Assembly: GCA_034421095.1 (NCBI GenBank)
Contig: DAOUKR010000007.1
Location: forward strand, 64,712 to 128,711
Source of the DNA: Dehalococcoidia bacterium
GTDB taxonomy: Bacteria > Chloroflexota > Dehalococcoidia > Lucifugimonadales > JAGWBF01
Direction: 5' to 3'
DNA length: 64,000 nt
Shown: piece by piece, positions 21,210 to 26,011 of the stretch
Layout of the letters: each line of letters starts with the position of its first letter
How positions within the stretch are numbered: the first letter of the stretch is position 1
The notes under the pieces: model-generated
The model's input: only the letters and a program-made list of their open reading frames with translations
Database searches by the model: none
Told to the model about the DNA's origin: nothing
Position numbers and translations under genes: made by a program

Positions 21210-22796
21210 TTGGCGGTGAGCAATCAGGATACTGAAGCGGCCCAAGCCTATCACGAGTCCACAAAGCTTTCCTATATCAACCTGCGCAACAAGCCCCCGA
21301 TTTACAAGTCCTACGACGAACTCCAGGTTTTTCCCCTTCCTACCGACTTTTCCATGTCCAAGACCTCAACTCTGGATGCAGTTGCTGGCGTAGGCCCGGG
21401 AGACGTGGCAGCCTTTGACATTGGTCTGCTTGCTCGGTGCTTGTTTTACTCCGTCGGACTTGTCAGGAAGGGGGTCTTCCCAAAGGCAGGGGAGGTGCGT
21501 TTCCGAGCTGCGGCTTCCGCGGGAGGGCTGTATCCGATAGAGACCTACCTGGTATGTAAGGATATTCCAGGGTTGGAGGCAGGAGTTTACCATTTTTCCC
21601 CGAGGGACTTTGCCCTTAGACAGTTGCGTAAAGGCGACTACAGGAGCGAGCTTTACGGGGCTACCGGCGAGGATAGCTCTGTTTCCGGATCCCCCGTTAC
21701 CCTTATTTTTACGTCCATTTTCTGGAGGAGTGCCTGGAAGTACAGAGCTCGCTCTTACAGGTACTGTTTCTGGGACAACGGTACTATCCTCGCCAATTTG
21801 CTGGCGACGGTTTCGACAGAGGGGTTGCAGGCGCGGGTGATAGCTGGATTCGTGGACGATCAGGTGAACTCGCTGCTAGGGGTTGACGGAGAGATGGAAG
21901 CGAGTCTATGTATGGTCACGTTGGGTGGGGAACATGATTCCCGGTCAGGCTCAAGCCAGTTGACAGTAGCACCGCTCTCATCCGAATCGGAACTCCCTCC
22001 CGATGACATGATTGATTACCCTGAGATACGCCACATGCACACCGCTTCGATGTTGGGTACGGCGGAGAAGGTTGTGTCCTGGCGGGGTGTCATGCCTTCA
22101 GAATCGCCTCAGATCAGGACTCCATCTTATTCCCTGGAGAGCGCTGGGGGTAGTAGCAGGGAGGTGAGTAAACTGGGAGACGTGATTCTTGGTCGTGGCT
22201 CCACCCGGCGTTTCGCTCCTGTCTCTATATCTCGGATGCAGTTCGATTCCATAGTTGACTACTCTACCAGAGGAGTCCCGGCGGACTTTCTGGGACCCGG
22301 TGGAACAAGCTTGTTGGACATCTATATGATTGTCAACTCTGTGGATGGGCTTTCCGCCGGAAGCTACTTCTTCTCCCAGGAGCGAAGGAGCATGGAACAG
22401 CTTCAGGACAGGGACCTGCGCATGGAGGCCGGACACCTGTGTTTCGAGCAGGCTTTGGGGGCCGACGCCAGTGCGGTGGTCTTCTTTATGGCTGACCTGG
22501 AGCGAATATTTCGTCGCTTCGGAAACAGGGGTTATCGTGCTGCTCAACTGGAGGCGGGTACCATTGGAGGCAAGATGTACCTCTGTGCCCATTCCCTGGG
22601 GCTAGGGGCCAGCGGCCTTACATTCTACGACGATGACGTCACCGATTTCTTCTCTCCCCACTCCCAAGGCAAAAGTCCCATGTTTGTTGTTGCACTGGGA
22701 GTAACGGACAAGATAAACCGGGTGCGACCATTCAGGTCTCGGGTGGGCGTTCTGCTTGACGCCTTGTCTCGTGGGGCGGAGGGAGGAAGCCGGTAA
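21210..22796 (+). CDS. SagB/ThcOx-type nitroreductase-fold protein with two FMN-binding domains
   Basis: Domain 1: AAASAGGLYPIETY, YRARSYRYCFWDNG; domain 2: RGSTRRF, YRAAQLEAG, FYDDDV. Confidence 0.85.
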   Translation: MAVSNQDTEAAQAYHESTKLSYINLRNKPPIYKSYDELQVFPLPTDFSMSKTSTLDAVAGVGPGDVAAFDIGLLARCLFYSVGLVRKGVFPKAGEVRFRAAASAGGLYPIETYLVCKDIPGLEAGVYHFSPRDFALRQLRKGDYRSELYGATGEDSSVSGSPVTLIFTSIFWRSAWKYRARSYRYCFWDNGTILANLLATVSTEGLQARVIAGFVDDQVNSLLGVDGEMEASLCMVTLGGEHDSRSGSSQLTVAPLSSESELPPDDMIDYPEIRHMHTASMLGTAEKVVSWRGVMPSESPQIRTPSYSLESAGGSSREVSKLGDVILGRGSTRRFAPVSISRMQFDSIVDYSTRGVPADFLGPGGTSLLDIYMIVNSVDGLSAGSYFFSQERRSMEQLQDRDLRMEAGHLCFEQALGADASAVVFFMADLERIFRRFGNRGYRAAQLEAGTIGGKMYLCAHSLGLGASGLTFYDDDVTDFFSPHSQGKSPMFVVALGVTDKINRVRPFRSRVGVLLDALSRGAEGGSR

Positions 22797-22856: not shown

Positions 22857-23663
22857 CTAGCTCTCGACTTTTTCAACTATGTAATGCAATGTCCCTCTGG
22901 GTACGGTAATGTGGACCTCTTCGCCCATCATCTTGTCCAGAAGGGCCTTCCCTACAGGGGAGATGCTGGAGATTCTGCCCGTGGCGGGGTCCGCTTCCCT
23001 TGAGTCTACCAGGGTGTAACAGACCTCCTTGCCGCTGCTCACTTCCCGAAGGGTCACCTTTCTACCAATCTTGACTTGCTGTCCATTCGCAGTGTTTTGA
23101 TCGTCTGCCACGACTGCGTTGATCAGGATTCCCTCCAGCTCCTTCAGGCTGGACTCGATAAGGCCCTGACGCTCCTTGGCGGCGTCGAGTGGTGCGTTTT
23201 CCCTGAAATCTTTGTCTGCCATAGCCCGTTGGATGTCGGCTATGACGTTAATCCGTTCTTCTTTGAGCATCTCCAGGCGGGACTGGAGGTTGGCGTATCC
23301 TTCGGCGGTGAGCTCCGCACGTTCCATTGCCGACTTGAAATATACGCGCCTGGAACCTTTCTTTGCCTTGGACACCTTCAGGTGAGGGGCAAGGCTAACG
23401 CTGGTCAGCTTCCTCTCCCGGAGGTAGGTCAGGAAAGATTTCACAGGCTTCAGCTTTTTGGCCGAGTCTGCACCCCAAATGCTGGCTGACTCTCCATACT
23501 CAGCTATCTCAGAGGGGGTTAGCTGGGATATGGCTCTATCTCTACCGCACCATTGGATGAAGCGGTTAAGCTCTTGTTGTCCTTCACGCTGCTCCTCTCC
23601 TTTAAGCCTGGGCAAGTACTGATCGTAGGCTTCCTTTAGAGAATGGCCTTGCTCTACAGACAA
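22857..23663 (-). CDS. greA: Transcription elongation factor GreA with an N-terminal extension of about 100 aa
   Basis: LTAEGYANLQSRL, DFRENAPLDAAKE (two acidic tip residues), EADPATGRISSISPVGKALL. Confidence 0.9.
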   Translation of the reverse strand: MSVEQGHSLKEAYDQYLPRLKGEEQREGQQELNRFIQWCGRDRAISQLTPSEIAEYGESASIWGADSAKKLKPVKSFLTYLRERKLTSVSLAPHLKVSKAKKGSRRVYFKSAMERAELTAEGYANLQSRLEMLKEERINVIADIQRAMADKDFRENAPLDAAKERQGLIESSLKELEGILINAVVADDQNTANGQQVKIGRKVTLREVSSGKEVCYTLVDSREADPATGRISSISPVGKALLDKMMGEEVHITVPRGTLHYIVEKVES

Positions 23664-23665
23664 CT

Positions 23666-26011
23666 TCAGCTCTCCTTTCCAACGACTAATCCAAGTTTGG
23701 CCAGGACGCTCTGGCTATCTTGGGACGATTCAAGGCCCCATTCCAATCCCAGTTCGTACTTTTCCTGAAGCTGGCTTATGGTTTCAGGGCCCGGAAGATT
23801 ACCTTCGCCCAGATGTTGGACCAACTCTGGTAGCGAATTGTAGGCCTGGTCTACATTCCAGTAAAAGGACAATAGCCAGGCCAGTTCCCGTTCGTTGATC
23901 GGGCTGGGAATTATTCTGAGGTCCAGGATGTTGTTATTAACCTTGGTATATCTCAGGATACCGGCTTTGTCCTGGGCATCTCTACCGTAATGTCTTCTGC
24001 GGTTCAGTTCTTCGACTCTCCGCTTATATTCCGCCTCACCATATATCTCCCGGGGTAGCCACTCCGACCGGAGGTCCACTACTTCATCCCCGTTCTGGTT
24101 CACTATGGCTACAGCTATGTCCGAACCCAGTACGCTGTCATATTCAAACTTCACAGCATTGCGCAGCAAGGCTTCCTGTAGCATCAGCGTCAGGTCTCTC
24201 TGAATCTTCCTGTATTGTGACCCACTGGCATCGTCATTGGTATCGGCGCCGACCCCACCTGTGTTGAAGGCGTAATACTCCTGGGGTATCCCTCCGTCGG
24301 CCATCTCATGCAGTATGTTGTACATGAGATTGGCGTTCTCATCTTCCAGACCGATAATGAACGGGTCGGAGAAGTATTCCACATACGGTCTGCCTATAGC
24401 ACCTATAGCGGCCCCCATCTGAACTGCCTCACCATACATCAGGACTCTAATGTATTGCTCAAGGCCGAGACGCCTCAAGGGTGGTATCACGGTGTTTTGT
24501 CGCATCACTGCCTGCCAGAATACTCGGTCGGTGTTCTCCATAGGCACATGGACGGAATCTTCCATTTGGCCGTTGGTGATTGCCTCCATCAGGTGGGCAG
24601 CCCCCTTCCGGTTCAGGAGGCGAGGCCGAGAAAGGATCATACGCATGTTGCGAACTGGATTTCGGAGATAATTGGGTGTGCTGTCGTCAACGTTGACAGG
24701 GACGTTCTCCAGGGTTTCCTGGGGGTTTGGAGTCTCTTCTGTGCCCCTGAGAACATCGTAAGTTATAGGGTCGTCTTTCTGAGTGAGACCGAATGGTACG
24801 GCGTACAGGTTGTTCTCAGTTCCGTCTATGCCGTGGGAAATCCTTACGTGCCTGCCTCCGCGCGTTGTCTCCTTGACCTCCTGCAGAGGCTGGAGAAGGA
24901 CGATGTCATCGTTCATTGGGTAGACACCCTCTTGTGGGTCCGTCACGAGGTCGAGGTGTTTGGCAAGGACGCTATTTGCCAACTCGATCATTATGGTGAG
25001 GGTGCTCTTCCCATGCAATGAAGGGCCGATTGTGACAAGTGCCGTGTTTGTCATGGTGTTATCCAGAGTCTTGATCCGCGCCATGCTAAGAGCGGCTTGG
25101 ACTGCAAGCCCATTGGCCTGTTTAACCTGAAACATCGCAATGGATAATGGGCCCATTTTGTGCTCACCAACATAGTCAAATCCCAGGTGGAGAGATAGAC
25201 CTTTGGTGGGGGCTTTGAAGACCAATTGGGTGAGCTTAGCCTCTCTAACGCGGTCCTTAAGGTCTTCCGGCATGTCGAGATGCTCAAGCCACCTTGGGAT
25301 TGAGACTTCCAGAATATTGGGGGTTTTGTGGCGTTCTAAGTCCGGCATGTCGAACGTCAGTTGTCGCCACATATATGGGGCCTGAAGGTAGTCGGTGCCG
25401 AAGAACAGTTGTCGAGCATGGAATGAACGTCCTGGCGCATCACAAATTTGCCTGTCGGATTGGATTATTGGAGGCTGGTCATCCTGCTCATCTGATGCCG
25501 AGTCGCCGTTAAATTGGCGATTCATAAACCTGTTGATATAGACGAATACTTCGGCAAAAATGGCTTGATTGGCCTCACTGAAAGCCAGAGCGTCCCGGTT
25601 TTTGGCGAAGCCATCAATGAAATACTGGGTAAGGTCGGGCCGGCGTGCTACTCCCAGCTGGCTGAAAAAGGCCAGACCGCCGTTGTCCAGGCGAAACGCC
25701 ACACCCGGCCCGGCTCGGCCTGCAGCCTTTCCCTCGTCGTTGGCCTTTTGTGCTTCTTCGTCAATTTCTCTGGCCTCTGCGAGGATTTCCTCCTGCTTTA
25801 CTTGAGGCATGTCTTGGATAATGGTCATGTGGCTGGTGAGCCATTCGTCTGGGGGATTGAAAAATTTGCTGTTCGGCGCTTGACCCTGACTTGCTAGAGC
25901 TACCAGTTCGTCTAGTTCCCTCTCGAAAGCAGGATTGATAGGTGGCCCGGCGAGAGGAGGGACTTGCCCTGAGCCATGTCCGAGGGGTGGCTCCTGAACG
26001 CTCTCTGGCAT
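23666..26011 (-). CDS. Divergent ATP-dependent PEP carboxykinase-fold protein
   Basis: GFDYVGEHK, P-loop GPSLHGKST, NDD, RNMR, IPPL, YFSDPF, FNTGGVG in PEPCK order; 781 aa; catalytic competence uncertain. Confidence 0.7.
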   Translation of the reverse strand: MPESVQEPPLGHGSGQVPPLAGPPINPAFERELDELVALASQGQAPNSKFFNPPDEWLTSHMTIIQDMPQVKQEEILAEAREIDEEAQKANDEGKAAGRAGPGVAFRLDNGGLAFFSQLGVARRPDLTQYFIDGFAKNRDALAFSEANQAIFAEVFVYINRFMNRQFNGDSASDEQDDQPPIIQSDRQICDAPGRSFHARQLFFGTDYLQAPYMWRQLTFDMPDLERHKTPNILEVSIPRWLEHLDMPEDLKDRVREAKLTQLVFKAPTKGLSLHLGFDYVGEHKMGPLSIAMFQVKQANGLAVQAALSMARIKTLDNTMTNTALVTIGPSLHGKSTLTIMIELANSVLAKHLDLVTDPQEGVYPMNDDIVLLQPLQEVKETTRGGRHVRISHGIDGTENNLYAVPFGLTQKDDPITYDVLRGTEETPNPQETLENVPVNVDDSTPNYLRNPVRNMRMILSRPRLLNRKGAAHLMEAITNGQMEDSVHVPMENTDRVFWQAVMRQNTVIPPLRRLGLEQYIRVLMYGEAVQMGAAIGAIGRPYVEYFSDPFIIGLEDENANLMYNILHEMADGGIPQEYYAFNTGGVGADTNDDASGSQYRKIQRDLTLMLQEALLRNAVKFEYDSVLGSDIAVAIVNQNGDEVVDLRSEWLPREIYGEAEYKRRVEELNRRRHYGRDAQDKAGILRYTKVNNNILDLRIIPSPINERELAWLLSFYWNVDQAYNSLPELVQHLGEGNLPGPETISQLQEKYELGLEWGLESSQDSQSVLAKLGLVVGKES

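What the first reader, a model, noticed from the sequence alone, without database searches (positions are those of the whole stretch)
22857..23663. GreA fused to a tyrosine-recombinase core-binding (SAM-like) DNA-binding domain
The first roughly 100 aa (SLKEAYDQYL...ELNRFIQWCG...LTPSEIAEY...KKLKPVKSFLTYL...LAPHLK) follow the four-helix pattern of XerC/D and phage-integrase N-terminal core-binding domains. The rest is an intact GreA with acidic tip residues (DFREN). A DNA-binding module on a secondary-channel factor could target transcript cleavage to particular DNA sites or structures. I recall similarly long GreA proteins in Dehalococcoidia but no functional study.
Basis: partly seen in the sequence, partly recalled or inferred. 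Interest (0 to 1): 0.6.

Follow-up and report, generated by a model that had tools for sequence, protein, structure and literature searches.

The report
GreA with an integrase-type N-terminal domain
This gene encodes a normal-looking transcript-cleavage factor (GreA) that carries, in front, a small domain borrowed from site-specific recombinases; it is conserved across Chloroflexota, is the only Gre factor in some of them (including Dehalococcoides mccartyi), and nobody appears to have studied what the extra domain does.

Summary
Window 22857-23663 on the minus strand is a 268-aa ORF with a TTG start and an AGGAG Shine-Dalgarno. Residues about 113-267 are a complete GreA, with both Pfam domains above cut-off and the acidic tip pair D152/E155.

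Residues about 5-98 form a four-helix domain homologous to the core-binding (SAM-like) domain of tyrosine recombinases:
- hhalign against certified integrase SAM-like domains: 97.9 %, E 3e-13.
- VIA-align: Z 12.1 to 3nrw, with ranks 1-22 all recombinase core-binding domains.
- Foldseek gives the same picture.

Pfam alone misses the domain (17 bits against a cut-off of 27).

The fusion is a family of more than 300 clusters at 50 % identity. It occurs in 35/39 sampled genomes of the same class and patchily elsewhere in the phylum. In D. mccartyi and other streamlined genomes it is the only Gre gene. Where a short paralogue co-exists, that paralogue has usually lost the acidic tip, in 19 of 22 cases.

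So the long form is most likely the housekeeping cleavage factor. The basic N-domain (pI about 9.2) and the very basic flexible linker most plausibly tether it to nucleic acid near RNA polymerase. DNA binding is inferred, not shown.

I rate it a new variant of a known kind. I found no functional study. This scan has noted the same fusion on another genome.

The parts
22857..23663 (-). Whole gene for the long GreA: 268 aa, TTG start at 23663, stop codon at 22857-22859
   Evidence: Orthologues of 258-273 aa with the same start position.
23672..23676 (-). Shine-Dalgarno AGGAG, 8 nt before the TTG start and inside the 3' end of the upstream gene (stop at 23666-23668). Translational coupling is possible.
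23370..23663 (-). N-terminal domain, aa 1-98: a four-helix bundle (helices 9-19, 23-39, 50-61, 67-83) plus the LAPHLK segment. It is homologous to the tyrosine-recombinase core-binding (SAM-like) domain.
   Evidence: AF2 pLDDT 78.5 and pTM 0.68. VIA-align Z 12.1 to 3nrw, ranks 1-22 all recombinase core-binding domains. Foldseek. hhalign 97.9 %. Profile against PDB.
23322..23369 (-). Flexible, very basic linker, aa 99-114 (KAKKGSRRVYFKS...). Predicted disordered.
   Evidence: pLDDT below 50 for residues 99-114. Median linker pI 10.8 over 110 members. K96 and K99 are basic in 98 % and 95 % of members.
23109..23321 (-). GreA N-terminal coiled coil (aa 115-185, PF03449), the part that enters the RNAP secondary channel in known Gre factors
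23199..23210 (-). Coiled-coil tip D152-F-R-E155, equivalent to E. coli GreA D41 and E44, the catalytic acidic pair
   Evidence: Alignment to 1grj. D and E are kept in 129 of 130 full-length members that were recovered through the N-domain alone.
22860..23108 (-). GreA C-terminal globular domain (aa 186-268, PF01272), the RNAP-docking domain in known Gre factors

Best explanation
The gene encodes the main, housekeeping transcript-cleavage factor of this SAR202/Dehalococcoidia-type bacterium. It is a catalytically competent GreA. Its coiled coil should enter the RNA polymerase secondary channel and stimulate cleavage of backtracked RNA through D152 and E155. An ancient gene fusion added a tyrosine-recombinase core-binding domain to the N-terminus. 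The junction sits exactly where recombinases have their interdomain linker, so GreA stands where the catalytic domain would be. The N-terminus of a Gre factor lies at the base of the coiled coil, outside the channel. The four-helix domain therefore hangs outside RNAP on a disordered, lysine/arginine-rich linker of 16 to about 35 residues. I infer that the domain and linker bind duplex DNA of the elongation complex with little or no sequence specificity. That would raise the local concentration and residence of the factor on transcribing or backtracked polymerase. What is shown: the two-part anatomy, the homology of both parts, the conserved catalytic tip, the basic character, family-wide conservation, and sole-Gre status in some genomes. 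What is inferred: DNA binding, tethering, and the geometry on RNAP.
For: - GreA part: PF03449 and PF01272 are both above cut-off. The protein aligns end to end with E. coli GreA 1grj at 1.8e-17, with D152/E155 on D41/E44.
- Tip conservation: D and E are kept in 129 of 130 members that were selected only through the N-domain.
- N-domain fold: VIA-align gives Z 12.1, rmsd 2.3 A over 95 of 104 residues to 3nrw. Lambda Int, XerD, XerA, XerH, IntI and Tn1549 Int fill ranks 1-22, followed by a drop to unrelated folds. Foldseek's top ~20 hits are the same set.
- N-domain homology by sequence: the profile hits 3nrw over its full length at E 0.009. hhalign against certified SAM-like domains gives 97.9 %, E 3.4e-13 over 93 columns, with K75-S76-F77 on the integrases' invariant R-S-F. 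Across 401 genomes, the six non-GreA hits I fetched and examined all lay on Pfam-certified Phage_int_SAM domains.
- Charge: median pI is 9.2 for the N-domain, 10.8 for the linker and 6.1 for the Gre body. Family-wide basic columns are R34, R43, K70, K75, R82, H94, K96 and K99, on helices 2 and 4 and the linker.
- Independent domains: linker pLDDT is below 50 and whole-protein pTM is 0.46, against 0.68 for the N-domain alone.
- Housekeeping role: it is the sole Gre gene in G021 (D. mccartyi, complete genome), G008, G159, G114 and G087.
- Short paralogues: where one co-exists, 19 of 22 lack Asp at the D41 position. This genome's own short copy has G and D there.
- Separate lineages: long and short Gre domains split on one branch with SH-aLRT 100.
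- Context: the neighbours are housekeeping genes (gyrA, folK, folP) with no mobile-element genes.
Against: - No experiment or complex model shows that the N-domain binds DNA.
- Isolated recombinase core-binding domains are generally weak DNA binders on their own (my knowledge, not tested here).
- The domain fails Pfam's gathering threshold (17 bits against 27).
- The most strongly conserved residues are mostly hydrophobic core (L32, F35, W38, F77, L78, L91). The conserved surface could equally serve a protein partner.
- I had no model coordinates, so I could not check that the basic residues form a single face.
- The reach from the secondary-channel rim to DNA is argued from general knowledge of Gre-RNAP structures, not computed here.
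- All NCBIfam GreA equivalog models score below their cut-offs, so the Gre part is itself divergent.
Confidence: 0.55

Rival explanations
1. The N-domain is a protein-protein adaptor. It would dock on a lineage-specific surface of Chloroflexota RNA polymerase or on another factor, much as the N-terminal helical bundle of eukaryotic TFIIS recruits partners. It would not bind DNA.
For: The invariant residues are mainly core. A few conserved surface residues (E31, R34, Y56, H94) could form a protein interface. The domain is attached by a flexible linker, as an adaptor would be. Recombinase core-binding domains also make subunit contacts (my knowledge).
Against: High pI of the domain and the linker. 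The conserved basic columns align with the conserved Arg positions of real integrase SAM-like domains. No partner gene is conserved next to it.
Confidence: 0.2
2. The N-domain confers site- or structure-specific targeting. The factor would act mainly at particular DNA sequences or at branched or damaged DNA such as transcription-replication conflicts.
For: Core-binding domains contribute to sequence recognition in recombinases, and recombinases handle branched DNA (my knowledge). Helix-2 and helix-4 residues are highly conserved across the phylum.
Against: It is the only Gre factor in complete, streamlined genomes, which argues for a general role. It has a housekeeping gene context. I did not search for a candidate recognition motif.
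Confidence: 0.1
3. The basic N-domain and linker bind RNA at the mouth of the secondary channel. The RNA could be the 3' segment extruded from deeply backtracked complexes, or nascent RNA. This would give a GreB-like ability to handle long backtracks.
For: The linker is very basic and lies immediately before the coiled coil. Many of these genomes carry no other cleavage-competent Gre factor.
Against: The homologous domain in recombinases is a duplex-DNA major-groove binder (my knowledge). I have no evidence for RNA binding.
Confidence: 0.1
4. Annotation artefact: the true start is internal and the N-terminal ~100 codons are not translated. The D. mccartyi CBDB1 record is annotated this way, at 170 aa.
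For: One public record (CAI82903.1) is annotated at 170 aa.
Against: The N-terminal region is conserved at the protein level down to about 30 % identity in more than 300 clusters, with invariant W38, G40 and F77. It folds confidently. It has its own Shine-Dalgarno. Other D. mccartyi records are 265-266 aa.
Confidence: 0.02

Closest known systems
Canonical GreA (E. coli GreA, PDB 1grj; Pfam PF03449 + PF01272)
   Same: Residues 113-267 align end to end with it. Both domains and both catalytic acidic tip residues are present.
   Different: It has an extra 112 N-terminal residues: a four-helix domain and a basic linker. All NCBIfam GreA equivalog models score below their cut-offs. It forms a paralogue lineage separate from the short Gre proteins of the same class.
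Core-binding (SAM-like) domain of tyrosine recombinases (Pfam Phage_int_SAM_1/_4; 3nrw, lambda Int 2oxo/1z1b, XerD 1a0p)
   Same: The four-helix fold and the sequence profile match, including the conserved basic-S-F motif of helix 4 and the LAxHL segment at the domain's end.
   Different: No recombinase catalytic domain follows; GreA takes its place. The domain is below Pfam's gathering score. DNA binding is untested.
Long GreA fusions of Chlamydia and spirochaetes (NCBIfam NF004969 'transcript cleavage factor/unknown domain fusion protein'; NF011309)
   Same: These are also Gre factors with large N-terminal additions.
   Different: Only the Gre part matches, and far below their cut-offs: 41 bits against 697, and 78 bits against 714. 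Those proteins are 700-900 aa with unrelated N-terminal regions.
Eukaryotic TFIIS (functional analogue, not a homologue)
   Same: It shares the overall logic: an N-terminal helical bundle, a linker, and an acidic hairpin that enters the polymerase pore or secondary channel (my knowledge; acidic tips noted in PMC7749167).
   Different: The folds and ancestry are unrelated. TFIIS domain I is a protein-interaction module.
HelD (secondary-channel arm fused to DNA-handling motor domains)
   Same: A Gre-like two-helix arm that enters the secondary channel is combined with other modules in one polypeptide (PMC7749167).
   Different: HelD dismantles complexes and is not a cleavage factor. It has no SAM-like domain.
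Gfh1 (Thermus anti-cleavage Gre homologue)
   Same: It gives a similar match to the Gre part (5e-14 to 1e-13).
   Different: Here the D/E tip of active GreA is kept. It is the SHORT paralogues of this class that have lost it, and those may be the Gfh1-like ones.

Membership tests
GreA/GreB family | N-terminal coiled-coil domain (PF03449) above the gathering score | tested here: met
   62.1 bits against 24.5, aa 118-185
GreA/GreB family | C-terminal globular domain (PF01272) above the gathering score | tested here: met
   80.7 bits against 26.9, aa 195-267
GreA/GreB family | Two acidic residues at the coiled-coil tip (E. coli D41, E44) | tested here: met
   D152 and E155 align to them. Kept in 129 of 130 family members.
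GreA/GreB family | NCBIfam GreA equivalog score cut-off | tested here: not met
   Best is NF001263 at 134 bits against 145. All others are also below cut-off. It is a divergent subfamily, not an equivalog by NCBI's rule.
GreA/GreB family | Stimulates endonucleolytic transcript cleavage by RNAP | not testable with these tools
   Needs an in vitro assay.
Tyrosine-recombinase core-binding (Phage_int_SAM) domain | Pfam gathering score for a Phage_int_SAM model | tested here: not met
   PF13495 scores 17.2 bits against 27. 9 of 26 family members give sub-threshold hits.
Tyrosine-recombinase core-binding (Phage_int_SAM) domain | Profile-level sequence homology to certified SAM-like domains | tested here: met
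   hhalign 97.9 %, E 3.4e-13, 93 columns. The family profile finds Pfam-certified SAM-like domains in genome searches. 3nrw at E 0.009.
Tyrosine-recombinase core-binding (Phage_int_SAM) domain | Four-helix core-binding fold | tested here: met
   Z 12.1, rmsd 2.3 A, 95 aa to 3nrw. Ranks 1-22 are all recombinase core-binding domains. Foldseek TM 0.67-0.71. The fold is predicted, not solved.
Tyrosine-recombinase core-binding (Phage_int_SAM) domain | Binds duplex DNA | not testable with these tools
   Only the basic pI and the conserved basic columns are available.
Tyrosine recombinase (whole enzyme) | Catalytic domain PF00589 with the R-H-R-Y active site | tested here: not met
   No PF00589 match. 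GreA follows the linker. The protein is not a recombinase.
Chlamydial / spirochaetal long GreA fusions (NF004969, NF011309) | Full-length match above the curated cut-off | tested here: not met
   41 bits against 697 and 78 bits against 714, over the Gre part only

The most novel reading that the evidence does not exclude
The recombinase-derived domain would make this Gre factor a DNA-riding, or DNA-structure-sensing, cleavage factor. It would hold on to the duplex, or to branched or distorted DNA at stalled polymerases and transcription-replication conflicts. It would then deliver the catalytic coiled coil to RNAP only there. That would be a mode of Gre recruitment unknown in other bacteria and the default one for a whole phylum. 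The tip-less short paralogue would act as its competitor or regulator in the secondary channel.
Probability: 0.12. Interest if true: 0.8.

Novelty: new variant of a known kind. Interest (0 to 1): 0.55.

Why it matters
Gre factors are thought to find RNA polymerase purely through the secondary-channel rim. A phylum-wide Gre factor with a nucleic-acid-binding-type module would show a second way of recruiting or retaining a proofreading and anti-arrest factor. In several genomes this factor is the only one, so the question is not marginal.

It is also a clean case of a mobile-element DNA-binding module being taken into the core transcription machinery.

On the practical side, public annotation calls these proteins plain GreA. 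At least one reference strain (D. mccartyi CBDB1) has the gene annotated without the extra domain, so proteomic and functional work can miss it. The idea can be tested with two recombinant proteins, full-length and lacking the N-domain.

Tried and rejected
- Direct Pfam and NCBIfam scans of the N-terminal part gave only sub-threshold hits. Profile and fold methods were needed.
- The search for related loci with the diverse N-domain alignment failed because no conserved 7-10-column stretch was available. The single-sequence run returned only 8 close Dehalococcoidia MAG loci.
- Proteins of odd length that carry the N-domain (P0057, P0073, P0080, P0197) were checked for other architectures. P0057 and P0073 start a Gre coiled coil and then diverge, so they are probably frameshifted or chimeric contigs. 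P0080 continues into a Memo-like segment. I found no convincing alternative fusion partner.
- I hoped the D. mccartyi acetylome paper (acetyl-K17 of GreA, PMC7918482) would show that the N-domain is expressed. I rejected this because the CBDB1 record is annotated at 170 aa, so K17 is numbered on the truncated form and says nothing about the N-domain.
- The link to the upstream PEPCK-like gene is only local. That gene is present in 2-3 of 8 related loci.
- No terminator-like or promoter-like site was found at the 3' end.
- My first tally of tip residues in long forms was circular, because I had selected the sequences by the motif. I redid it without the filter.
- Six literature searches, with GreA, Gre factor(s) or core-binding domain combined with Phage_int_SAM, Chloroflexota taxa, N-terminal extension, domain architecture and similar terms, found no description of this fusion. 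The library lacks most subscription journals.
- Occurrence outside Chloroflexota could not be tested. Named cluster members were only Dehalococcoides and SAR202.

Full report
**1. The observation**

Window 22857-23663 holds a 268-aa ORF on the minus strand with a TTG start. An AGGAG lies 8 nt upstream of the start, inside the last codons of the preceding gene. That gene's TGA stop ends 2 nt before the TTG.

Pfam places GreA_GreB_N at aa 118-185 (62.1 bits) and GreA_GreB at aa 195-267 (80.7 bits), both well above cut-off. phmmer against PDB sequences aligns aa 115-267 with E. coli GreA 1grj (1.8e-17). D152 and E155 fall on the catalytic D41 and E44. NCBIfam's GreA equivalog models all score below their cut-offs (best 134 against 145). 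The Gre part is therefore a divergent subfamily.

**2. The N-terminal domain**

On its own it gives only a sub-threshold Phage_int_SAM_4 hit (17 bits against 27). Several further lines of evidence agree that it is a recombinase core-binding domain.

- *Predicted fold.* AlphaFold2 with a 26-row alignment of N-domain-only fragments gives a four-helix bundle with helices at 9-19, 23-39, 50-61 and 67-83 (pLDDT 78.5, pTM 0.68). In the full-length model the linker 99-114 has pLDDT below 50, and the two halves behave as independent domains.
- *VIA-align.* The model was aligned to all 48,161 PDB representatives. 3nrw, an integrase N-terminal domain, ranks first (Z 12.1, rmsd 2.3 A, 95 of 104 residues). 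Ranks 1-22 are all tyrosine-recombinase core-binding domains: lambda Int, XerD, XerA, XerH, IntI, Tn1549 Int, MrpR and SroF. Unrelated folds then follow at Z 6.8 and below. The tool warns that helical bundles can reach Z of about 13 by chance. What makes this convincing is the monopoly of a single family over 22 ranks together with coverage of the whole domain.
- *Foldseek.* It gives the same list (3nrw TM 0.67/0.71).
- *Profile against PDB sequences.* An HMM of the family hits 3nrw over its full length (E 0.009).
- *Genome search.* The same profile was searched in 401 genomes of the phylum. Apart from the GreA fusions it gave a handful of weak hits at per-genome E of about 1e-6. I fetched six of them. 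Four are tyrosine recombinases with PF00589 plus Phage_int_SAM_1/_4 above threshold. Two are SAM-like plus MerR proteins. In all six the profile match lies on the SAM-like domain.
- *Profile-profile comparison.* hhalign of the GreA N-domain family against those six certified SAM-like domains gives 97.9 % probability, E 3.4e-13, over 93 columns. K75-S76-F77 falls on the integrases' invariant R-S-F. The LAPHL segment falls on the end of the integrase domain. The fusion point is therefore the recombinase interdomain linker, with GreA where the catalytic domain would be.
- *ESM-Atlas.* Feature neighbours are also Phage_int_SAM clusters. Scores are 0.88-0.90, which is a lead only.

**3. The family**

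The N-terminal 112 aa alone find 308 representatives (50 % clusters) at E<=1e-3. Nearly all are 260-280 aa or are contig-end fragments. Fifty 90 % clusters lie close to the query, and all of them carry both Gre Pfam domains. I found no convincing alternative partner.

In whole genomes the domain was found as follows:
- 6 of 6 sampled genomes of the same order;
- 35 of 39 of the same class;
- about 52 of 355 from other classes of the phylum, after discounting the weak integrase-type hits.

These tallies include two unpublished genomes (G227, G344). They contribute only to the counts, and no sequence from them is used. Named relatives are Dehalococcoidia MAGs, SAR202 and Dehalococcoides mccartyi. 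I could not test other phyla.

**4. Which Gre factor is it?**

A PF03449 search of 61 genomes of the class shows a typical pattern of one long-frame and one short-frame Gre gene. This genome fits that pattern: the second copy is on contig 12 (L001 1498-1968, minus strand).

Fourteen genomes have a single match, and in 13 of them the open frame is of long-form size. Five of these are 97-100 % complete (G021, G008, G159, G114, G087). In each, the N-domain hit lies directly upstream in the same frame. G021 is D. mccartyi. In those organisms the long form is therefore the only Gre factor.

All but one of 130 full-length members, selected only through the N-domain, keep the D/E tip. By contrast, 19 of 22 short paralogues from the class lack Asp at the D41 position. 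Typical tips are GGTANN or SAQNN, and this genome's copy has G and D. One of the three short forms that keep an acidic pair (D..D) comes from G045, a complete genome that has only a short form.

A quick maximum-likelihood tree of Gre domains separates the two groups on one long branch with SH-aLRT 100. It used 34 long forms (every second representative plus five near relatives) and all 22 short forms. It is unrooted and has no outgroup. The careful search did not finish, and P0090 sits on a long branch. The result is compatible with a single ancient fusion but does not prove one.

**5. Context**

In related genomes the gene sits between gyrA plus a class-I glutamine amidotransferase on one side and a double nitroreductase, folK and folP on the other. 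The 781-aa PEPCK-like gene immediately upstream in this window is present in only 2-3 of 8 related loci. There are no mobile-element genes nearby.

**6. Mechanism**

*Shown:* the anatomy, the homology of both parts, the conserved catalytic tip, the flexible linker and the charge pattern. Median pI is 9.2 for the N-domain, 10.8 for the linker and 6.1 for the Gre body. Conserved basic columns are R34, R43, K70, K75, R82, H94, K96 and K99.

*From established knowledge of Gre-RNAP complexes* (for example GreB-RNAP entries 6ri7 and 6rin, listed): the coiled coil enters the secondary channel tip first. The N-terminus is therefore at the channel mouth.

*Inferred:* the N-domain hangs outside RNAP. 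Between helix 4 (ending at residue 83) and the Gre helix (starting at residue 120) lie 16 disordered residues within a span of about 35. I estimate roughly 55-120 A if that span is extended. From there the domain would bind duplex DNA of the elongation complex non-specifically and raise the occupancy of the factor.

I put about 55 % on this reading. The rivals are a protein adaptor (about 20 %), site- or structure-specific targeting (about 10 %), RNA binding at the channel mouth (about 10 %) and an untranslated extension (about 2 %).

**7. Novelty**

Public records name these proteins simply GreA. The precomputed Pfam annotation shows only the two Gre domains. The D. mccartyi CBDB1 entry is annotated at 170 aa, without the domain.

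Six literature searches found no description or functional study of the fusion, though the library lacks most subscription journals. Gre factors with other N-terminal additions are known in Chlamydia and spirochaetes (NCBIfam models), so this is a new variant of a known kind.

Noticed in passing
L001:1498-1968 (-), own genome contig 12; also L033-L052: The second, short (~156 aa) Gre paralogue of this genome has Gly and Asp where E. coli GreA has D41 and E44. 19 of 22 short paralogues sampled from the class lack the first acidic residue, and many lack both. They may be non-cleaving, Gfh1-like secondary-channel factors.
   Followed up: partly
L024:1250-2341 (+) and L025:1061-2128 (+): Proteins of 355-363 aa in other Chloroflexota combine a Phage_int_SAM_1 domain with a MerR-type HTH and have no recombinase catalytic domain. 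This is another non-recombinase use of the core-binding domain in the phylum.
   Followed up: no
Public record CAI82903.1 (D. mccartyi CBDB1), seen through P0205: The CBDB1 greA (presumably the cbdbA743 of PMC7918482) is annotated at 170 aa, while other strains' identical-cluster proteins are 265-266 aa. The start was probably called too far downstream, which hides the N-domain from proteomic searches.
   Followed up: partly
window 23666-26011 (-): The 781-aa PEPCK-like gene ends 2 nt before the greA start, and the greA Shine-Dalgarno lies inside it. The adjacency is only local: it is present in L003 and L004 and partly in L007. This gene is already the subject of another finding of this scan.
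   Followed up: partly
window 21210-22796 (+): A 528-aa protein with two nitroreductase-family stretches (SagB-like size) is convergent with greA. It is conserved at this position in 7 of 8 related loci.
   Followed up: no
P0080 (315 aa, metagenomic): The N-domain and the start of the Gre coiled coil continue into a Memo-like domain. This is probably a chimeric or frameshifted contig rather than a real architecture.
   Followed up: no
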